A DNA stretch of 64,000 nt from Gemmatimonadales bacterium (lineage in GTDB: Bacteria; Gemmatimonadota; Gemmatimonadetes; Gemmatimonadales; GWC2-71-9): contig JBOHSN010000005.1 of NCBI GenBank assembly GCA_050733215.1, forward strand, positions 5,322 through 69,321. Reading direction: 5' to 3'. Shown here piece by piece: positions 2,382 to 16,081 of this stretch (the stretch's first letter is position 1; the number at the start of each line of letters is the position of its first letter). The translations under genes and the position numbers were made by a program. The notes beneath the pieces are model-generated. The model was not told the DNA's origin. It made no database searches and worked only from the letters and a program-made list of their open reading frames with translations.

Positions 2382-4916
2382 ATGTCAAAGCGTGCAGTGT
2401 CTGGGTTCCATACCTGGCTCCGTTCCGTCGCTCTGGCCGTCCTGGCCGCTCTCCTTCCCAGCATCACGACCGCGCAGCAGTCGGGTACAGTCACCGGAAC
2501 GGTGACCCGGGCCGAAGGCGGGGGCGCGCTGGCGGGCGTATCCGTATCGGTGCAGGGCACCGGCCAGACTACGGCCAGCCGTGGCGACGGCCGATACACG
2601 CTTCGCAACGTGCCCGCCGGCCCCCGGACCATCGTGTTCCGCTGGCTGGGGTATCGGCCCACTGAGCTGCCGGTGACGGTGGAACCCGGTGGGAGCGCTA
2701 CGCTGGATGCTGCGCTCGAGCCGGCGCCGGCGATCCTCAGCGACCTGGTGGTGCAGGGCGCCTCCCGCGCACCGGAGCGCATCGTCGAAGCGCCGGCGGC
2801 CATCTCGGTGGTCGAGCCCCGACTGCTCGAGGCCAACACGATTACCGGCCAGGTGCCGATGGCGCTGAAGGAAACGCCCGGCGTGGACCTGGTGCAGAGC
2901 GGCGTCAACGACTTCAACGTCAATACCCGCGGGTTCAACTCATCGCTCAACCGCCGCATGCTGGTGCTCCAGGACGGACGCGATCTCGCCATCGCGTTCC
3001 TCGGCTCGCAGGAGTGGAACACGCTCTCCGTTCCGCTCGAGGAGCTGGGACGCATCGAGGTGGTGCGCGGGCCGGGGTCGGCGCTCTACGGCGCGAACGC
3101 CTTCAGCGGCGTCATCGCGCTCACCACCCCGGCCGCGCGGGAGATCGTGGGGACCAAGCTCACGATCGGCGGCGGCGAGCTGGAGTCGCTCCGCGGCGAT
3201 CTGAGCCACGCCGGCGTCGCGGGCGGTGGACGGTTCGGCTACCGGGTGAACGGTGGCTACTACCGGAGCGACACGTTCACCCGCTCCCGGACGCTCCTCG
3301 ACCGCTCGAGCCTCGCGACGGAGTACGCGCCCGCTACCGACGCCGCCATCGGCCCGGCGCGGGAGGCACGGCCGCTCTCGGGGCAGACCCTCGACCCGGT
3401 GACCGGCGCGCCGCTGGGCGACCGCGACGACCTCCAGAACATCTACGGCTCGGCCCGGGTCGATTACTACACCCCTGGCGGCTCGGTGGTCAGCGCGGAC
3501 GGCGGCGCGGCCCGGGTGGAGAACGAAGTGCTCGTCACCGGCATCGGCCGGGTGCAGATTGAGAAGGCACTCCGTCCGTGGGCCCGGCTGGCCTGGGCCG
3601 GCGAGCGGTTCAATGTGTTCGGGTTCTGGAACGCACGCCGGACCCTCGATCCCCAGTTCTCGCTGGCGTCGGGCGCGCCGCTCCGCGAGACATCCGACAT
3701 CTTCCACGTGGAAGGGCAGACCAACTTCCGCTTCCTCGAGGAGCGGGGCCGGGTGGTGGTCGGGACGTCGTACCGGAACACCAACGTGGACACCGAGCTC
3801 ACCCTGATGGAGGCGGCGAACGACAACCGGAGCGACGATCTCTACGCGGGCTATGGCCAGGTGGAGTTCGACATCATTCCCAAGCTGAAGCTGGTCGCGG
3901 CGGCGCGCATCGACGACGGCACGCTGATCAGCACCCAGTTCTCGCCCAAGGGCGCCATCGTCTTCAGCCCGAACGAGAATCACTCCATCCGGGCGACAGT
4001 GAACCAGGCGTTCCAGACGCCCAACTACTCCGAGTTCTTCCTCCGGGTGGCGGCGGGCGCGCCGGCCAACTTCACCGCGCTCGAGACCGGGCTCCGGGCC
4101 TCAGCGCTCGGCCCGGCGCTCGCGGGCGTCCCGGTGGGGACGCTCTTTACCACGTCGGCGGCGGTGCCGGTGTTCGCCCGCGGCAACGCCGGGCTCGACG
4201 TCGAGTCCACCACCGGATACGAGCTGGGCTACAAGGGGGCGTTCGCGAACCGAGTGTATGTCACGCTGGATCTGTACTACAACGCAATCAGCGACTTCGT
4301 GACCGACCTCCTCCCCGGCGTGAATCCGGCGTACGGCCCCTGGACCGCGCCGGACGCCGTGCCGCCGCAGTTCCGGCCGGCGCTCGAGGCGGCGGTGCGA
4401 AACAGTCTCGCGCCGATCAACCCGATCGCCGCGGCGGGACTCACACGGGTGAATGGCAACACCGAGATCGTGCTGTCCTACACCAACGCCGGCCAGGTGG
4501 ACCAGTACGGCGCCGAGCTCGGTGTCGGTGTCCAGATTACCGACGAGGTCCGGGCGGACGGCTCGCTCAGCCTGTTCGACTTCGAGGTCGAGGCGGGCAG
4601 CCAGGCGGTGGGCGACCAGCTCCTGGCCAACACGCCCAGCACGAAGGGGACGCTGGGCGTCTCGTACACCGGGCGGCAGGGGCTCGACCTCGGCGCCAGC
4701 GTCCGGATCGTGGACAGCTACCAGTGGGCCGCGGGCGTGTTCGTGGGCGAAGTGCCCTCGAGTGAGTCGGTGGACGTGAACGCGGGGTACCGGATCAACC
4801 ACAACTTCCGGGTGTTCGCGCTGGCGACGAACGTGTTCGATCAGGAGCGGTATCACCTGTTCGGCGGGTCGGTGATCGGGCGGCGGGTGTTGGGCGGTAT
4901 CACCGTACAGTTCTAA
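2382..4916 (+). CDS. TonB-dependent outer-membrane receptor with N-terminal carboxypeptidase-regulatory-like domain
   Basis: ORF 2199..4916. Start set at ATG 2382 with GGGAGG at 2371-2376. Signal peptide, then [45 protein letters not shown], a plug region, a beta-barrel with alternating pattern, and C-terminal ..GGITVQF (terminal Phe). Confidence 0.9.
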
Positions 4917-7749: not shown

Positions 7750-8888
7750 CTCTTCGCCACCACCTCCGACACCGTGAAGAGCGACTGCATCCCCATATCC
7801 AGGTGTGGCGCCACGTGGCAGTGGAACATCCACACGCCCGGGTTGTCCGGCACCATGTCCGCCACCAGCATCTGCATCGCCATCAGGTGCACCATGTCGG
7901 TTCGCATGTGGTGCGCCACGACCGTCTGGCCGTGCCAGTGCGGCGTGTGGATCTCGAAATTCGAGTTGGCGAAGACGTACCAACGTACCCGCTCGCCCTT
8001 CTGCATCGTCAGTCCGGGGGTGTGCCCGAAGCTCAGCCCATTGATCGTCTCCCGCAGGTTGACCAGGTAGGCCGGATCGGCGAAGGTCACGTTCCGCGGC
8101 ACCTTGGCCGAGTCCGCGTAGGTCTTTGCGTTGTGCTCGAAGTACCAGCTCACGTTCTCGTCGAACTCACCGAACAGCGTCACGATCTCCCGGTCCACGT
8201 CTTTGGGCGTGCCGTCCGGACGGCTGCCGCCCTTGGCCGTGATGATCATCGGCCCGACCAGCCCCGCATTGACGTCCTTCCCCTCCTCGACATGCGAATG
8301 GTACATCCAGATGATCGAGCTGCCCTCCCCCGGCGCCGGACCCGCCCGCGCCGGTACCGGCCAGAGGTAGACGTGGGTCCCCCCGGCCGGCACGCCATCG
8401 TCCGCCTTGTCGGCGCCGCTGGTGCCGTCTGCGTACGGCGCACCTTCGGATGACTTCGTGTAGATGACGCCGTGCGGGTGCAGGCTGTAGGGATGGCTCG
8501 CGTTGTTCCGGAACACTACGCGGATGGTGTCGCCCACCTCGGCGCGGAGCAGCGGGCCGAGGATGCCGAGGTGCTCCCAGGCGGCCGGCCTCGGCTTGAC
8601 CGTGCTGAAGCCGCTGTCGGTGTACTCGCGGTAGATGGCCTTCTTGTACACCCGCCCGATCCGGTCCGGTGCGCTCGACGTGAGCACACTCTGGAAGCCC
8701 TCGAACGGGTGGCCGGTGATGGCGTTCGTGCCGCTCGGCGCGTAGTCCCACGCCACTTCCTCAGCGGCGACGTAATAGGTCCTGACGCGGCCGGCGGCGG
8801 GCAGATTCGCGGTGTACCAGCCCGCGATGGCCAGCGCGACGGCGCCGCCGGCGGCCAGGGCGACGAACGGGGCGATCCTGCGTGGCAT
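7746..8888 (-). CDS. multicopper oxidase, two cupredoxin domains, ceruloplasmin-like, N-terminal membrane anchor
   Basis: ORF 7746..8912. Start set at ATG 8888 (MPRRIAPFVALAAGG), with GGAGG upstream. Copper ligand motifs HPHGV, WMYHSHV, HTPHWHG and FHCHVAPHLDMGM (type 1 Cu site HCH..H..M). Confidence 0.85.
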   Translation of the reverse strand: MPRRIAPFVALAAGGAVALAIAGWYTANLPAAGRVRTYYVAAEEVAWDYAPSGTNAITGHPFEGFQSVLTSSAPDRIGRVYKKAIYREYTDSGFSTVKPRPAAWEHLGILGPLLRAEVGDTIRVVFRNNASHPYSLHPHGVIYTKSSEGAPYADGTSGADKADDGVPAGGTHVYLWPVPARAGPAPGEGSSIIWMYHSHVEEGKDVNAGLVGPMIITAKGGSRPDGTPKDVDREIVTLFGEFDENVSWYFEHNAKTYADSAKVPRNVTFADPAYLVNLRETINGLSFGHTPGLTMQKGERVRWYVFANSNFEIHTPHWHGQTVVAHHMRTDMVHLMAMQMLVADMVPDNPGVWMFHCHVAPHLDMGMQSLFTVSEVVAKR

Positions 8889-12436: not shown

Positions 12437-12703
12437 ATGGACTTCCTGTGGACCTTGATCATCGGCTTGATCGTTGGCGCCATCGCCAAGCTGCTCATGC
12501 CGGGCCGCGACCCGGGCGGCTTCATCGTGACCATGCTGTTGGGCGTAGCGGGTGCGCTGCTAGCGGGTTTCCTCGGCCGCGCCATGGGTTGGTACGACAA
12601 CCCGGGCTCGGGTCCCGGAATCATCGCGTCCGTTCTCGGCGCCATGCTGTTGCTGTTCCTCTACCGGCTCTTCGTCGGGCGGCGCCGGACCACAGTACCC
12701 TGA
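12437..12703 (+). CDS. GlsB/YeaQ/YmgE-family (transglycosylase-associated) small stress membrane protein
   Basis: Frame of ORF 12371..12703. ATG 12437 has GGAGGG upstream. MDFLWTLIIGLIVGAIAKLLMPGRDPGGFIVTMLLGVAGALLAGFLG. Confidence 0.85.
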   Translation: MDFLWTLIIGLIVGAIAKLLMPGRDPGGFIVTMLLGVAGALLAGFLGRAMGWYDNPGSGPGIIASVLGAMLLLFLYRLFVGRRRTTVP

Positions 12704-12704
12704 A

Positions 12705-12780
12705 GTGTGAGTGCGAGTGTGAGTGACGAGGGGCGCCTGAGTCACCCCTCACACTCACACTCACACTCACACTCACACTC
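12705..12780. repeat. tandem-repeat-armed palindrome E: about 3.5 x GTGTGA, core hairpin, 5 x ACACTC (hexamers); stop to stop
   Basis: gtgtga gtgcga gtgtga gtga (12705-12726). Core cGAGGGGcgcctgagtcaCCCCTC. Then acactc x5 (12751-12780). Flanked by the TGA at 12701-12703 and the convergent stop at 12782-12784. Confidence 0.95.
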
Positions 12781-12781
12781 C

Positions 12782-14497
12782 TCAAGCAGGAACCAGCCGG
12801 GCCCGCTCCGCCCGCCCGGGATGCACCTGCCGGGCCAGCTCCGCGAACTGCTCGGGGTTGAGGCTCTGGTACCCGTCGCTCAGCGCCTTCGACGGGTCGG
12901 GGTGCACTTCGACGATCAGGCCGCACGCCCCCGCGGCGAGCGCGCCGGCACTCAGGGGAATCACCAGCGACGCCACCCCCGCCGCATGGCTCGGGTCCAC
13001 CACCACCGGCAAGTGGGTGCGCTCGCGCACCAGCGCGACCGCGTTCAGGTCCAGTGTGTGCCGCGTCGCCCGCTCGAACGTCCGGATGCCGCGCTCGCAG
13101 AGCACCACGTTTGGGTTGCCTTCCGCCAGCACGTACTCCGCTGCCATAAGCCACTCTTCGACCGTGGCTCCCGCGCCCCGCTTGAGCAGGATCGGCTTGC
13201 CGCTCCGGCTCGCCGCGCGCAACAGCGAGAAGTTCTGCATGTTGCGCGCGCCGATCTGGAGCATGTCGGCGAAATGCGCCACGAGCGGCACTTCCTCCCA
13301 GCTCAGCACCTCGGTCACCACCGGCAGGCCGGTGCGCTCGCGGGCGATGGCCAGATAGCGTAGCCCCTTCACACCGAGACCCTGGAAATCGTACGGCGAC
13401 GTGCGCGGCTTGTACGCGCCGCCACGGAGCATGTCGCCGCCCGAGCCCGCCACGACCTGCGCGGTCTCGAGGATCATCGCCTCGCTTTCCACCGAGCAGG
13501 GGCCGCCGATGAGTACCGGCTCCGAGCCCCCGAACCGGAGCCGGCCGACCTCCACCACCGTGCCCTCCGGCCTGCGGCGCCGGTCCACCAGCGGGACCTC
13601 CGGCTTCTTCATGTGATGCGCCGGCGTGGGGATGGGCGCGGCGAACCGGAGTGCGCCATCGGGCGACGCCTCGTACGTCCCCAGGATCACGAGCTCCGCT
13701 GCGAGCGCTTCGATCTCCTCCAGCGCTTCGGCCACGCGCGGGTCCGTGGCCGAACCGGCGACGTCCACGTAGAACCGATAGGTCCATGGCCTGGAGCGCT
13801 CGGGCCGGGATTGCAGGGCCATGACGTTGACTCCTCGCGCGCCGAACGCCTGCAGGGTGAGCGCGAGGCTCCCGGGCTTGTGGTCCACGCAGACGATGAG
13901 CGAGGTCTTGAACGGCTGCGCCGCGTCCTGCGGGGGTGCATCGTCCGCCCGTGCGAAGGCGAGGAAACGCGTCTGGTTGGTCGGGTCGTCCTCGATGCGC
14001 TCGGCCAGCGGCACCAGGCCGTACGCGTCGGCCGCGTGGCGCGAGGCGATCGCCACGAACGCCGGATTGCCCTCGCGCGCCACGATCTCGACGCTTCCCG
14101 CCGTGTCCCACGCGCTGACCAGCTCCGCTTCCGGCAGGTGCTTGCCGAGCCAGACGCGACACTGCCCGAGCGCCACCGGGTGCGAGAGTACCCGGCGGAC
14201 CTGTTCCAGCGTCGCGCCCGGCAGTCCGATGAGCGTGTGATGCACCGGTAGGAGGATCTCGTGCGTGAGCTGAAGGCGCCCGTCGCCGAACGCCTCGTGC
14301 AACAAATCGTACGTGGTGGTCACCGAGCCGATGAGCGAGTTCTCGATGGGGAGAATGCCGGCGTCGGCACTCGCTTCCCGGACCGCCGTGACCACGTCCT
14401 GCACGTCCCGGCAGGGGACCGCCTCGAGCTCGGGCCACCGGCAACGGGCGGCGGCTTCGCTGAAGGAGCCAACGGCTCCCTGGATGGCTACGCGCAT
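12782..14497 (-). CDS. fusion protein: prephenate dehydratase (PDT + ACT) with 3-deoxy-7-phosphoheptulonate (DAHP) synthase, class I-beta
   Basis: ORF 12782..14527; start set at ATG 14497 ([16 protein letters not shown]..). N-terminal half: [12 protein letters not shown], then the ACT region [22 protein letters not shown]-terminal half: [41 protein letters not shown], a KDO8PS/DAHPS I-beta barrel. Confidence 0.9.
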
Positions 14498-14520
14498 ACG
14501 GGTGTCTGCTCCGCGATGGT

Positions 14521-14562
14521 GAACCAAACACGACGCCCCGCCGGAAGGCCGGCGGGGCGTCG
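14521..14562 (-). terminator. intrinsic terminator/attenuator hairpin in the leader of the PDT-DAHPS gene
   Basis: Perfect 14-bp stem CGACGCCCCGCCGG / CCGGCGGGGCGTCG (14531-14544 and 14549-14562) with a 4-nt loop. On the minus-strand RNA it is followed by UGUUUGGUUC. It sits 34 nt upstream of ATG 14497, just 5' of the GGAG ribosome-binding site. Confidence 0.65.
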
Positions 14563-14583
14563 AAGGGTCCGTTCTCGAGTGGG

Positions 14584-14673
14584 CTAGCGCGCGCTACCAC
14601 CGGAACCGGACGGCCGTCGAGCCGCGCCGGGACAGGCAAAGTAGAAGAACCAGTAGCAGCGGGTGCCTTGCAT
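14584..14673 (-). CDS. 29-codon leader peptide with six consecutive aromatic codons ([29 protein letters not shown])
   Basis: Translated codon by codon from ATG (14671-14673) to TAG (14584-14586). TAC TGG TTC TTC TAC TTT occupy 14638-14655. Located between a candidate promoter and the terminator hairpin. Below the ORF-track length cutoff. Confidence 0.6.
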
Positions 14674-14681
14674 CGTTTGAG

Positions 14682-14710
14682 AGTCTACCCCGCGGCGGAG
14701 ACGGCGTCAA
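14682..14710 (-). promoter_or_regulatory. candidate sigma70-type promoter driving the aromatic leader (near-leaderless)
   Basis: On the minus strand: TTGACG (14710-14705), a 17-nt spacer, TAGACT (14687-14682). The leader ATG begins 8 nt after the -10 hexamer, so the leader ORF would be translated from a leaderless or near-leaderless 5' end. Confidence 0.45.
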
Positions 14711-14786
14711 GCAGGAGCGGCGGCGCGGGCACCCATCCGCCTATCTTTGAACATCATCGGCACCATCCCGTCTCACGGAGCAGCGC

Positions 14787-15797
14787 TTGCCAACGCCAAC
14801 TGCCAGTCGCTCGGCGCGTCGACGATTGCGTTCCGGAGCCGCCCGGTGGCGGCTCGCGCTCGGTCTCCTGCTTGGATGTCCCTCGGCGGGCGCCGGCCAG
14901 GGGCTCCCGGCATGGGCCCCCATCAATCCGGCTGCCGCGAGTCGCAGCGCGCTCGGGTTCCAGCCGTATGTGGATCCCGCACCCGGCCGCTGGCGTGCCA
15001 GCATCCGCCTCGATTACGGAAGCGCCATCGAGTACAACCTTCCGTTCCCGCAGCCGAGCTGGCTGCTCGATGCGGAGCTGATGCGGCTCGAGCTCGGCGT
15101 GGTGCGAGATCTGGGCTCGCGCACGTTCGCCATCGCCGAGCTGCCGGTCCTGGGAGCCTACGATGGGTTCCTCGACGGCTTCCTGGAGTGGTACCACGAC
15201 CTCTTCGGCATCGCGATGCCCGAGCGCGACGCCCGGCCCCGCAATGCGTTCGCGTACGACCTGACCGCGCCGTCGGGCACCCGCGTGGTCCGCGACCGCT
15301 CCGGGCTCTTCCTCGGCGACCTCAGACTCGGCGTCGGCTACCGCTTCAACTCGGTGCTCCAGACGGTCGGATCCGTCACGCTGCCGACCAGCATCGGTCC
15401 GGACGGCTACGGCCGCGGCACGGTCTCGGTGAACGCGGTGACGACGCTTCGCGCGCCGTTCTCGTCCCGCTTCATCTACGAGGGCAGCCTCGGCGTGGGC
15501 TTCACGCCGAGCGAAGGAGCGCTCGCCGACTTCCACCGGGAGCTCTTCCTGTCGGCGACGTCGGGATTGCGGTTCCGTTTCTGGGGCCGGCAGTCCCTGT
15601 TCGCCAACTTCTTCTATCACTCGCCGTACTACGACGACGTGATGCTGCCGGCGCTGGACCAGCACGACCTGGCCCTGGATTTCGGGTGGATTCTCGCCAC
15701 CCGCGGCGGGCGCGAGTGGCGCATCGGTATGGTGGAAGATCTGGAGCCGAGCGGGCCCGGCATCGATCTGGTGTTCCGGCTGGGGGCCACCTTCTAA
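14787..15797 (+). CDS. DUF3187-like outer-membrane protein (hypothetical)
   Basis: 336-aa ORF with a TTG start. An alternative TTG at 14826 gives MRSGAARWRLALGLLLGC.. signal/lipobox. The sequence is rich in alternating beta-strand patterns and ends ..LVFRLGATF. The family assignment is from memory of DUF3187 sequences and is tentative. Confidence 0.6.
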   Translation: MPTPTASRSARRRLRSGAARWRLALGLLLGCPSAGAGQGLPAWAPINPAAASRSALGFQPYVDPAPGRWRASIRLDYGSAIEYNLPFPQPSWLLDAELMRLELGVVRDLGSRTFAIAELPVLGAYDGFLDGFLEWYHDLFGIAMPERDARPRNAFAYDLTAPSGTRVVRDRSGLFLGDLRLGVGYRFNSVLQTVGSVTLPTSIGPDGYGRGTVSVNAVTTLRAPFSSRFIYEGSLGVGFTPSEGALADFHRELFLSATSGLRFRFWGRQSLFANFFYHSPYYDDVMLPALDQHDLALDFGWILATRGGREWRIGMVEDLEPSGPGIDLVFRLGATF

Positions 15798-15798
15798 T

Positions 15799-15822
15799 GC
15801 GAGTGCGGGTGTGAGTGGGAGT
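15799..15822. repeat. one-armed hexamer array (GCGAGT GCGGGT GTGAGT GGGAGT)
   Basis: Four GNGRGT units directly after the TAA at 15795-15797, between convergent genes. No inverted partner before the yggX stop at 15839. Confidence 0.8.
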
Positions 15823-15838
15823 GGCGCCGTCGCACCGG

Positions 15839-16081
15839 TCATCGCTCCGCGGCGGGTTGGAAGAGGAATTGCTCCATCTGCTTGAATAGAAAGTCCTTCG
15901 CCTGCGGGTCGCGAAGGTTCAGTGCGTAGTGGTTGATGAGCTGTTGCTGGGTGCGGAGCCACTCGCTCCAGCACACGGTGCAGATCTCCGAAAAGGCGCG
16001 GCGTCCGAGCTCGTTGGCAAACGGCTGGAACGCCATGCGGTCTCGCTCGTGTTGGCAGCGGACGCAGTGCACGGTGGCCAT
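15839..16081 (-). CDS. yggX: Fe(2+)-trafficking / oxidative-damage protection protein YggX
   Basis: C-terminal 80 codons of ORF 15839..16336, starting at ATG 16081: MATVHCVRCQHERDRMAFQPFANELGRRAFSEICTVCWSEWLRTQQQLINHYALNLRDPQAKDFL. The upstream part of the ORF is Arg/Pro/Gly junk. Confidence 0.85.
   Translation of the reverse strand: MATVHCVRCQHERDRMAFQPFANELGRRAFSEICTVCWSEWLRTQQQLINHYALNLRDPQAKDFLFKQMEQFLFQPAAER

What the first reader, a model, noticed from the sequence alone, without database searches (positions are those of the whole stretch)
14521..14710. Aromatic-codon leader peptide (..YWFFYF..) with promoter and terminator: a candidate ribosome-mediated attenuator of the PDT-DAHPS gene
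On the minus strand, in order, there are four elements. First, TTGACG-N17-TAGACT. Second, 8 nt later, an ATG opening a 29-codon ORF whose codons 7-12 are TAC TGG TTC TTC TAC TTT. Third, a GC-rich segment (CCGGCGCGGCUC) partly complementary to the 5' arm of the terminator, which could serve as an antiterminator. Fourth, a perfect 14-bp hairpin followed by UGUUUGGUUC, then the GGAG ribosome-binding site and the ATG of a gene encoding prephenate dehydratase plus DAHP synthase. Tyr, Trp and Phe codons together fit an enzyme pair that controls both entry to the common aromatic pathway and the Phe branch. This is the logic of the E. coli pheA and trp leaders. Here it appears in a distant GC-rich lineage, apparently with a leaderless leader ORF, which I have not seen described.
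Basis: partly seen in the sequence, partly recalled or inferred. Interest (0 to 1): 0.75.

Follow-up and report, generated by a model that had tools for sequence, protein, structure and literature searches.

The report
Aromatic leader-peptide attenuator of PDT-DAHPS gene
Upstream of a fused phenylalanine-branch/shikimate-entry enzyme gene in a Gemmatimonadales bacterium sits a conserved mini-gene packed with Tyr/Trp/Phe codons, plus a terminator and a competing RNA fold; this is a textbook-style ribosome-sensed attenuator, apparently not yet described in this phylum, and not a new mechanism.

Summary
These are the promoter, a 29-codon ORF with YWFFYF, the CCGGCGCGGC segment, a 14-bp terminator, GGAG, and a 571-aa PDT-ACT-DAHPS gene.

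The 6/6 aromatic run is unique in all six frames of the 64-kb window (expected 0.0004).

The architecture recurs upstream of the orthologous gene in 77/77 Gemmatimonadales genome loci, in about 100 metagenome contigs, and in eight relatives at 68-70% protein identity:
- An in-frame ATG lies 5-9 nt after the -10 box in 76/77 loci, so the leader ORF is probably leaderless.
- The stop codon sits at one alignment column and varies TAG/TGA/TAA.
- A long antiterminator hairpin pairs the segment just after the last Phe codon with the terminator's 5' arm.

Leader content drifts between clades, from Phe-only to Tyr/Phe to Tyr/Trp/Phe.

No Rfam family matches. The mechanism is the classical trp/pheA/ilv type. 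A Phe-Tyr-Phe leader before a DAHP synthase gene (C. glutamicum aroR) and leaderless leader ORFs in Actinobacteria are already published.

Verdict: real and well supported in silico; a new member of a known kind; moderate interest. No expression data exist.

The parts
14705..14710 (-). -35 hexamer TTGACG (TTGACA in 72 of 77 relatives)
14682..14687 (-). -10 hexamer TAGACT (TAGGTT/TACGTT/TAGCTT in relatives). It lies 8 nt before the leader ATG here and 6 nt before it in 60 of 76 relatives, which implies a leaderless transcript.
14584..14673 (-). Leader ORF, 29 codons plus TAG: [29 protein letters not shown]
   Evidence: Start, frame and stop are conserved in 76 of 77 loci. The stop falls at one alignment column in 72 of 77, as TAG 64, TGA 7, TAA 6.
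14638..14655 (-). Regulatory codons TAC TGG TTC TTC TAC TTT (Y W F F Y F)
   Evidence: The last TTT is invariant in 77 of 77, and the preceding codons are TTC/TAC/TGG/TAT in most loci.
14650..14661 (-). Region 1, CGCUGCUACUGG (codons 5-8): 5' strand of the 12-bp outer helix of the anti-antiterminator hairpin
   Evidence: MFE fold. Relatives use CUGGUAC:GUACCAG or CUUUACC:GGUAGAG instead.
14592..14603 (-). Partner of region 1, CCGGUGGUAGCG. In the antiterminator fold this segment pairs elsewhere.
14606..14630 (-). Inner hairpin of the anti-antiterminator, CCGG-C-GCGGCU-CGAC-GGCCGU-CCGG. It sequesters the antiterminator 5' strand in the terminating state.
   Evidence: alignment columns 129-134:147-153 are paired in 87-100% of sequences, 67-77 of 77
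14549..14630 (-). Antiterminator: a long imperfect hairpin. CCGGCG(C)GGCUCGA (14630-14617) pairs with UCGA(C)GCC(C)CGCCGG, which is the terminator 5' arm. The TAG stop codon (14586-14584) lies in its apical loop.
   Evidence: Pre-3'-arm folds. 85% of cells are paired against 30-50% in slid controls. There is three-way co-variation in distant clades.
14531..14562 (-). Intrinsic terminator hairpin, 14 bp, loop CCUU, dG -32.4 kcal/mol
14521..14530 (-). Terminator tail UGUUUGGUUC. It is weak here; most relatives have UUUUUGUUUU.
14509..14512 (-). Shine-Dalgarno GGAG of the structural gene (positions G204, G205, A206 and G207 of the window row: two invariant, two in at least 90% of sequences in the alignment). 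It lies outside the terminator.
12782..14497 (-). Regulated gene: a 571-aa fusion of prephenate dehydratase, ACT and DAHP synthase (DAHP_synth_1 family). It is monocistronic, with a convergent PDZ-domain gene downstream and a divergent DUF3187 gene upstream.

Best explanation
This is a classical ribosome-mediated transcription attenuator with a three-hairpin logic, controlling a monocistronic PDT-ACT-DAHPS gene in a Gemmatimonadales bacterium.

Proposed sequence of events:
1. Transcription starts at or within about 2 nt of the leader ATG, so the leader ORF is translated from a leaderless mRNA.
2. With ample Phe-, Tyr- and Trp-tRNA, the ribosome runs through the aromatic codons. It unwinds the 5' strand of the antiterminator and halts at the stop codon, which sits in the antiterminator's apical loop.
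3. The antiterminator therefore cannot nucleate. Its 5' strand is recaptured in the local anti-antiterminator hairpin (14661-14592), the 14-bp terminator forms, and transcription ends before the gene.
4. If any of the three charged tRNAs is scarce, the ribosome stalls in codons 7-12. That occludes or destabilises the outer helix of the anti-antiterminator but leaves CCGGCGCGGCUCGA free.
5. The long antiterminator (14630-14549) then zips up and sequesters the terminator's 5' arm before the 3' arm is made, and RNA polymerase reads into the gene.

Shown: all sequence elements, their conservation, and the competing folds.

Inferred: the transcription start site, translation of the ORF, the kinetic order of folding, and the response to amino-acid supply.
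For: Elements and gene identity. The aromatic run is unique in the window.

Conservation:
- All 77 Gemmatimonadales genome loci with enough upstream DNA carry a 22-30 codon ORF with 3-6 aromatic codons in the best 6-codon window (76 of 77 have at least 4). It starts (leader ATG) 152-185 nt before the orthologous gene's ATG.
- 102 of 120 metagenome hits to the RNA core lie 100-260 nt upstream of the same gene. They give 91 distinct leader peptides, 84 with at least 4 of 6 aromatic.
- Relatives at 68-70% protein identity keep the layout.

Coding signature:
- An ATG is in frame in 76 of 77 loci, at 5-9 nt from the -10 box.
- The stop codon falls at one column in 72 of 77 and varies TAG/TGA/TAA.
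- Indels inside the ORF occupy blocks of three alignment columns (109-111, 112-114, 162-164), so they are mostly whole codons.
- Aromatic positions interchange TAC/TTC/TGG/TAT.
- W is present in 61 of 77 leaders, Y in 74 and F in 76 of the 76 with an in-frame ATG (the last TTT is invariant in all 77).

Structures:
- Full-length MFE shows the terminator in 66 of 77 sequences.
- Before the 3' arm exists, the 5' arm is paired upstream in 71-76 of 77, and to the segment right after the last Phe codon in 143 of 144 unique sequences.
- Antiterminator pairs are 85% paired against 30-50% for slid controls. Hairpin A plus terminator are 90.5% paired against 33-49%.
- Compensatory changes occur at pairs 139:211, 143:206, 144:205 and 223:232.
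- Strand 2a, the terminator 5' arm and the 3' arm change together between clades: GGCUCGA / UCGACGCC / GGCGUCG, versus GGCCU / AGGCC / GGCCUU, versus CGGCGGCGCGUC / GACGCCUCGCCG.
- The estimated refolding barrier from hairpin A to the antiterminator drops from 18 kcal/mol (22 in the window) to 10.5 and 7.5 (9.4 and 7.0 in the window) when a ribosome footprint is placed on the aromatic codons.

Necessity: only about 33 nt separate the terminator from the gene ATG, and the upstream gene is divergent. Expression therefore requires read-through.

Precedent: the aroR-aroF attenuator (PMC4046766, PMC11802643).
Against: - There are no transcript, TSS, Term-seq or ribosome data. All relatives are MAGs or metagenome contigs.
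- In this 70% GC RNA, alternative pairings are cheap. After shuffling the 40 nt that follow the last Phe codon, 51% of shuffles still pair at least 60% of the terminator 5' arm. The existence of an antiterminator fold is therefore weak evidence on its own.
- Sequence conservation is so high that true covariation is sparse.
- The cognate versus non-cognate duplex test gives z = -6.2 and -6.7 for the antiterminator stems, but only -3.5 for the outer anti-antiterminator helix, against -3.2 for an unrelated control pair. That helix is not independently supported.
- Equilibrium folding with a ribosome placed at the stop codon still allows the lower antiterminator stem. Discrimination must therefore be kinetic, which I could only approximate.
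- The window's own U-tract is poor.
- Some relatives have only 3 aromatic codons (L201, L204, L195).
Confidence: 0.85

Rival explanations
1. The conserved RNA is a switch read by something other than the ribosome, such as an RNA-binding regulatory protein (TRAP- or PyrR-like), a small-molecule riboswitch, or uncharged tRNA. On this view the small ORF is incidental.
For: The RNA downstream of the aromatic run is conserved at the nucleotide level, far more than the peptide would require. The terminator/antiterminator alternative would serve any such sensor.
Against: - No Rfam family, including T-box and known riboswitches, matches even at E <= 10.
- The ATG sits at a fixed distance from the -10 box and in frame in 76 of 77 loci. 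The stop codon is kept at one column while varying among TAG/TGA/TAA.
- Indels within the ORF are mostly whole codons (blocks of three alignment columns).
- The variable positions are held to aromatic codons that differ in sequence (TAC/TTC/TGG), and distant clades swap to Phe-only runs. This is a pattern of selection on codon identity, not on a binding motif.
Confidence: 0.06
2. The mini-ORF encodes a functional small hydrophobic peptide or sRNA transcription unit with its own ordinary terminator. On this view the PDT-DAHPS gene is expressed independently or by constitutive leaky read-through, without amino-acid sensing.
For: The peptide's C-terminal part (AGAARxPSGxG) is conserved. Leader peptides with trans functions exist (peTrpL, PMC7298713). 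The window's weak U-tract could allow constitutive leak.
Against: - The conserved C-terminal codons coincide exactly with the strands of the competing helices, which explains their conservation.
- There is no room for a promoter in the roughly 33 nt between terminator and gene ATG, and the upstream gene is divergent.
- The element is found only in front of this aromatic-pathway gene: 102 of 120 pattern hits, with the rest being contig ends, chance matches inside coding sequence, or one divergent relative (L195) with the gene 313 nt downstream.
- The only strongly selected peptide feature is aromatic codon content, which changes with clade.
Confidence: 0.05
3. The attenuation is translational or Rho-dependent rather than by intrinsic termination. 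On this view the hairpin acts mainly on ribosome access or on transcript stability.
For: Mycobacterial leaderless poly-Cys sORFs act by unmasking the downstream ribosome-binding site rather than by termination (bioRxiv 10.1101/834739). The window's tail, UGUUUGGUUC, is a poor U-tract.
Against: - GGAG (14512-14509) lies 18 nt beyond the hairpin and is not paired with it in the window's own folds, and it is not part of any consensus helix across the alignment.
- Most relatives have canonical U-rich tails directly after the stem, as expected for intrinsic terminators.
Confidence: 0.04

Closest known systems
Corynebacterium glutamicum aroR-aroF attenuator (Neshat et al. 2014, as described in PMC4046766 and PMC11802643)
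   Same: A leader peptide with mixed aromatic residues (Phe-Tyr-Phe) lies directly upstream of a DAHP synthase gene, and read-through is enhanced by ribosome stalling. It occurs in a high-GC lineage where leader ORFs can lack a ribosome-binding site.
   Different: It belongs to a different phylum and no sequence relationship was tested. The leader here is longer and richer (up to six consecutive aromatic codons, including Trp in 61 of 77 loci). The regulated enzyme is a PDT-ACT-DAHPS fusion. The stop codon sits in the antiterminator's apical loop.
E. coli pheL-pheA and trpL-trpEDCBA attenuators (Rfam Phe_leader, Trp_leader)
   Same: It uses the same logic: a leader ORF with cognate codons, mutually exclusive 1:2, 2:3 and 3:4 pairings, and an intrinsic terminator before a prephenate dehydratase gene (pheA).
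   Different: There is no detectable Rfam similarity. The E. coli leaders have SD-led translation and sense a single amino acid. Sister clades here (L205-L208) do have Phe-only leaders resembling pheL in content.
Multivalent attenuators of E. coli ilvGMEDA/ilvBN and thr operons (own knowledge)
   Same: One leader peptide mixes codons for several end products of a shared pathway, so starvation for any one of them relieves termination.
   Different: Those sense branched-chain amino acids or Thr/Ile. This one would sense the three aromatic amino acids, which fits DAHPS as the common entry step.
Leaderless leader ORFs of Actinobacteria: the C. glutamicum ilvBNC three-hairpin attenuator (PMC11857589; Morbach 2000) and the mycobacterial poly-Cys sORFs (bioRxiv 10.1101/834739)
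   Same: The sensory short ORF begins at the 5' end of the transcript with no Shine-Dalgarno sequence. The C. glutamicum case has the same three-hairpin arrangement of anti-antiterminator, antiterminator and terminator.
   Different: They sense different amino acids and occur in a different phylum. The mycobacterial elements act on translation initiation of the next gene, not on termination.

Membership tests
Classical leader-peptide (ribosome-mediated) transcription attenuators | A short ORF upstream of a biosynthetic gene, enriched in codons for that pathway's amino acid(s) | tested here: met
   The window has YWFFYF, unique in 64 kb. It is conserved in 77 of 77 genome loci and in 84 of 91 distinct metagenome leaders at 4 or more of 6 aromatic.
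Classical leader-peptide (ribosome-mediated) transcription attenuators | An intrinsic terminator between the leader ORF and the structural gene | tested here: met
   A 14-bp GC hairpin with a T-rich tail. Stem pairs are conserved (91%), and the full-length MFE contains the terminator in 66 of 77 sequences. The U-tract is weak in the window and strong in most relatives.
Classical leader-peptide (ribosome-mediated) transcription attenuators | An antiterminator that shares a strand with the terminator (mutually exclusive folds) | tested here: met
   The 5' arm pairs with CCGGCG(C)GGC... in 71-76 of 77 sequences, and in 143 of 144 unique sequences. Cells are 85% paired against 30-50% slid. There is three-way co-variation across clades. 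Caveat: the chance background is high in GC-rich RNA.
Classical leader-peptide (ribosome-mediated) transcription attenuators | An anti-antiterminator (1:2) pairing that includes or abuts the regulatory codons, so that ribosome position selects the fold | tested here: inconclusive
   The window has a 12-bp helix, CGCUGCUACUGG:CCGGUGGUAGCG, covering codons 5-8. Relatives have CUUUACC:GGUAGAG. A footprint on the aromatic codons lowers the refolding barrier by 8-15 kcal/mol. However, the covariation test for the outer helix is no better than the control.
Classical leader-peptide (ribosome-mediated) transcription attenuators | The leader ORF is actually translated, with start, frame and stop under selection | tested here: met
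   This is the in-silico signature only. An ATG is in frame in 76 of 77 loci at 5-9 nt from the -10 box. The stop falls at one column in 72 of 77, as TAG 64, TGA 7, TAA 6. Indels within the ORF are mostly whole codons (blocks of three alignment columns). Translation itself cannot be tested here.
Classical leader-peptide (ribosome-mediated) transcription attenuators | Read-through responds to the supply of the cognate charged tRNA | not testable with these tools
   This needs Term-seq, Northern blots or reporter assays under Phe/Tyr/Trp limitation.
Rfam Phe_leader / Trp_leader and other curated leader, T-box or riboswitch families | A match to the family covariance model | tested here: not met
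   cmscan of 13500-16000, both strands, at E <= 10 returned only three sub-threshold chance hits (sR22, Flavi_TBFV_SL6, P15).
Leaderless sensory short ORFs | The transcript starts at the start codon, with no 5' UTR or SD | tested here: inconclusive
   Geometry only. The -10 box ends 6 nt before the ATG in 60 of 76 loci (range 5-9; 8 in the window), leaving no room for an SD. The TSS has not been measured.
C. glutamicum aroR-type attenuator | Sequence or structure homology to aroR | not tested
Only functional analogy is claimed.

The most novel reading that the evidence does not exclude
The Gemmatimonadales carry a lineage-wide, previously undescribed family of leaderless, multivalent aromatic attenuators. 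A single leader senses Phe, Tyr and Trp together for a fused PDT-DAHPS enzyme. The leader's stop codon is placed in the antiterminator's apical loop so that a terminating ribosome blocks nucleation. The amino-acid specificity is retuned between clades by codon turnover (Phe-only, Tyr/Phe, Tyr/Trp/Phe). This would be a natural series for studying how attenuator specificity evolves.
Probability: 0.55. Interest if true: 0.55.

Novelty: new member of a known kind. Interest (0 to 1): 0.42.

Why it matters
- It extends leader-peptide attenuation to Gemmatimonadota. No paper in the searched library links the phylum with leader peptides or attenuation. A 2010 survey knew such systems only from Proteobacteria and Actinobacteria, and added Firmicutes (PMC2965389).
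- About 180 natural variants are now in hand. Their leader content shifts from Phe-only to Tyr/Trp/Phe while the RNA switch stays fixed. That makes them useful material for asking how sensing specificity evolves and how a leaderless ORF couples to transcription.
- It predicts that the unusual PDT-ACT-DAHPS fusion is the regulated control point of aromatic biosynthesis in this poorly studied soil phylum.
- It flags an unannotated small ORF that gene callers miss.
- It does not reveal a new mechanism.

Tried and rejected
- RNAalifold on the raw MAFFT alignment gave almost no structure, because gaps misregister the helices. I replaced it with per-sequence folds mapped to alignment columns.
- Equilibrium folding with a ribosome mask at the stop codon did not discriminate terminator from antiterminator. 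I therefore fell back on a findpath barrier estimate.
- The cognate versus non-cognate duplex test also turned out significant for an unrelated control pair (z = -3.2). Only the antiterminator and terminator results (z about -6) are counted, and the outer helix of hairpin A is left inconclusive.
- The metagenome pattern scan was meant to find the leader in front of other genes. It found none. The 18 non-conforming hits were contig ends, chance matches inside coding sequence, or one divergent relative.
- I tested the idea that the AAGATAA motif is the -10 box of a divergent promoter paired with TTGTCA on the other strand. I rejected it because the spacer would be only about 9 nt (own inspection of the alignment).
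- A search of the window for other leaderless promoter-plus-ATG mini-ORFs found only this one.
- I found no paper on a PDT-DAHPS fusion.
Full report
**Observation**

- TTGACG (14710-14705), a 17-nt spacer, and TAGACT (14687-14682). The promoter scan picked this pair up independently.
- 8 nt later, ATG at 14673 opens a 29-codon [32 protein letters not shown], 14673-14584.
- Codons 7-12 are TAC TGG TTC TTC TAC TTT.
- CCGGCGCGGC lies at 14630-14621.
- A perfect 14-bp hairpin lies at 14562-14531, followed by TGTTTGGTTC.
- GGAG lies at 14512-14509 and the gene ATG at 14497.
- The 571-aa product has PDT, ACT and DAHP_synth_1 domains.

The window is 70% GC, so aromatic codons are rare: 3.9% of codons over all six frames. 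The only 6-codon windows with at least 5 aromatic residues anywhere in the 64 kb are the three overlapping this run. A 6/6 window is expected 0.0004 times, and none appeared in 100 randomisations.

**Organism and context**

The closest proteins are from Gemmatimonadales MAGs, and the PDT-ACT-DAHPS fusion is the norm there. Codon-position GC and Pfam show that the gene stands alone. A DUF3187 gene is transcribed divergently upstream (14787-15797, + strand), and a PDZ-domain gene converges downstream. Only about 33 nt separate the terminator tail from the gene's ATG. The gene can therefore only be expressed by read-through of the hairpin.

**Conservation**

I fetched 80 loci, from a genome collection holding one genome per species, that encode the orthologue at 76-94% identity. 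All 77 with at least 260 nt of upstream DNA carry the element.
- Each has a 22-30 codon ORF with an aromatic run, for example YWFFYF, FWYFYF, YWFFF, WFYFYF or YFAFYF. The ORF's ATG lies 152-185 nt before the gene's ATG.
- The alignment (A2) shows a near-invariant CTTGACAA, a 17-18 nt spacer, and a TAnnnT box.
- The first in-frame ATG comes only 5-9 nt after that box (6 nt in 60 of 76). This leaves no room for a 5' UTR or a Shine-Dalgarno sequence, so the leader ORF is most probably leaderless.
- The single exception, L021, has a 1-nt insertion.
- The stop codon falls in the same alignment column in 72 of 77 loci while varying TAG 64, TGA 7, TAA 6.
- Indels inside the ORF occupy blocks of three alignment columns (109-111, 112-114, 162-164), so they are mostly whole codons.
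- The last Phe codon is invariant. The preceding positions alternate among TTC, TAC, TGG and TAT.
- Trp occurs in 61 of 77 leaders, Tyr in 74 and Phe in 76 of the 76 with an in-frame ATG.

A scan of metagenome contigs for the RNA core returned 120 loci.
- 102 have the PDT-DAHPS gene 100-260 nt downstream.
- The rest are contig ends, chance matches inside coding sequence, or a divergent relative.
- These add 91 distinct leader peptides, 84 with at least 4 of 6 aromatic.

Stepping out to proteins only 68-70% identical to the window's shows the same promoter, ATG, leader, hairpin layout. The content differs:
- L205-L208 are Phe-only (GFFFFF, FFQFF, FFFFSF).
- L201 and L204 are Tyr/Phe.
- L202 and L203 are Tyr/Trp/Phe.

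This is the pattern expected if selection acts on codon identity in a sensory ORF.

**Structures**

The window's full-length minimum-energy fold has two parts (z = -3.0 against shuffles).
- An upstream hairpin whose 12-bp outer helix pairs CGCUGCUACUGG (codons 5-8) with CCGGUGGUAGCG. It encloses an inner hairpin, CCGG-C-GCGGCU/GGCCGU-CCGG.
- The terminator.

Folding each of the 77 RNAs and mapping pairs to alignment columns gives two alternative states.
- State T is the anti-antiterminator hairpin A (columns 121-134:147-161) plus the terminator (213-223:232-242).
- The other state appears when the transcript is cut just before the terminator's 3' arm. The RNA then folds into one long hairpin. 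CCGGCG(C)GGC..., which begins 7 nt after the last Phe codon, pairs with ...GCC(C)CGCCGG, the terminator 5' arm. The leader's stop codon sits in the apical loop.

In the window this antiterminator spans 14630-14549. Supporting counts:
- Antiterminator pairs are 85% paired against 30-50% when partners are slid. Hairpin A plus terminator are 90.5% paired against 33-49%.
- Because three constraints overlap (coding plus two pairings), the sequence is nearly frozen and compensatory changes are few: 139:211, 143:206, 144:205 and 223:232.
- The distant clades help. The antiterminator strand, the terminator 5' arm and the 3' arm change together: GGCUCGA / UCGACGCC / GGCGUCG in the window type, GGCCU / AGGCC / GGCCUU in L201-L204, and CGGCGGCGCGUC / GACGCCUCGCCG in L205.
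- Across 144 unique sequences with a detectable terminator, 143 pair at least 6 nt of the 5' arm to the 40 nt after the last Phe codon.

**Caveats on the structural evidence**

- In such GC-rich RNA, 51% of shuffles of those 40 nt still pair at least 60% of the arm. It is the conserved register and the co-variation that carry weight, not the mere existence of a fold.
- A cognate versus non-cognate duplex test gives z of about -6 for the antiterminator stems and the terminator. It gives only -3.5 for the outer helix of hairpin A, against -3.2 for an unrelated control. I treat that helix as not independently supported.
- Equilibrium folding with a ribosome mask at the stop codon does not by itself abolish the lower antiterminator stem. 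The choice must therefore be kinetic.
- A findpath estimate of the barrier for refolding from hairpin A to the antiterminator is 18 kcal/mol for naked RNA (22 in the window). It falls to 10.5 and 7.5 (9.4 and 7.0 in the window) with a footprint on the middle or last aromatic codon. This is consistent with stalling licensing the switch. It is a heuristic, not a simulation of co-transcriptional folding.

**Mechanism proposed**

1. Transcription starts at the leader ATG, and a ribosome loads on the 5'-terminal AUG.
2. If it passes the aromatic codons, it melts the 5' strand of the antiterminator and pauses at the stop codon in the apical loop. That blocks nucleation while RNA polymerase transcribes the terminator, about 63 nt further on. 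The freed 5' strand is recaptured in the local hairpin, and termination follows.
3. If it stalls in codons 7-12, it destabilises hairpin A but leaves CCGGCGCGGCUCGA exposed. The antiterminator then zips from its apex and sequesters the terminator's 5' arm, and polymerase reads into the PDT-DAHPS gene.
4. Codons for Phe, Tyr and Trp occur together in 60 of 77 leaders. The element would therefore be multivalent, which fits DAHPS as the common entry step and PDT as the Phe branch.

The sequence elements, their conservation and the competing folds are shown. The TSS, translation, kinetics and physiological response are inferred.

**Comparison with known systems**

No Rfam family matches the region even at E <= 10, so it is not a member of the curated Phe or Trp leader, T-box or riboswitch families. 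Functionally it is the classical trp/pheA/ilv type. The closest published cases are:
- The C. glutamicum aroR leader (Phe-Tyr-Phe) before the DAHP synthase gene aroF (PMC4046766; PMC11802643).
- Leaderless leader ORFs in C. glutamicum ilvBNC (three-hairpin model, PMC11857589; Morbach 2000, cited in PMC4046766).
- Leaderless poly-Cys sORFs in mycobacteria (bioRxiv 10.1101/834739).

I found no paper linking Gemmatimonadota with leader peptides or attenuation. A 2010 survey knew such systems only from Proteobacteria, Actinobacteria and, newly then, Firmicutes (PMC2965389).

**Verdict**

This is a real, strongly conserved regulatory element and a new member of a known kind. It has three mildly distinctive traits:
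- Three aromatic amino acids are sensed in one leader.
- The stop codon sits in the antiterminator loop.
- Specificity drifts from clade to clade.

Interest is moderate at 0.42. It is useful for annotation and for studying attenuator evolution, but it is not mechanistically new and has not been tested experimentally.

Noticed in passing
L205:539-622, L206:537-620, L207:530-610, L208:536-619 (leader ORFs); compare L201-L204: In sister clades (68-70% protein identity) the leader is Phe-only (GFFFFF, FFQFF, FFFFSF, GFFFF) or Tyr/Phe only (YRYCPF, YRFCPF), while the RNA switch is retained. The apparent sensing specificity drifts between clades.
   Followed up: partly
window 14742-14747 (- strand); alignment A2 columns about 10-35 in relatives: An A[AG]GATA motif, rare in 70% GC DNA, lies upstream of the -35 box in 62 of 77 loci. 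It is usually 6-8 nt upstream, but 31 nt in the window. It could be an UP-element-like or regulator site. A divergent-promoter reading was rejected on spacing.
   Followed up: partly
window 12782-14497 (- strand): A fusion of prephenate dehydratase, ACT and DAHP_synth_1-family DAHP synthase in one 571-aa protein is standard in Gemmatimonadales: both searches were capped at 8,000 scored candidates, all with E <= 1e-30. I found no paper describing this fusion. The ACT domain might give Phe feedback on both activities.
   Followed up: partly
L021:2783-3006: This is the only locus of 77 where the ATG next to the -10 box is out of frame with the aromatic run, because of a 1-nt insertion. It could be a MAG assembly error or a decayed leader.
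   Followed up: no
L201-L204 about 2386-3101; L205-L208 about 2398-3101: Gene neighbourhood differs by clade. A convergent prephenate dehydrogenase (PDH_N/PDH_C) abuts the gene in L201-L204. A co-directional DJ-1/PfpI gene (absent in L208) and a pyridoxal-dependent decarboxylase gene (tyrosine-decarboxylase-like) follow it in L205-L208, so the attenuator may control an operon there.
   Followed up: no
L195:8025-8409: This divergent relative has a degenerate leader, MKRYRAYDVFTGSGAAQSASGSEGAA (3 scattered aromatic codons), and an extra roughly 170 nt between terminator and gene.
   Followed up: no
window 12621-14639 (- strand) and other long ORFs overlapping real genes: Long spurious ORFs in alternative frames, typical of 70% GC DNA, overlap the leader and the gene (for example the 672-aa ORF 12621-14639). 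Codon-position GC shows they are not coding.
   Followed up: yes
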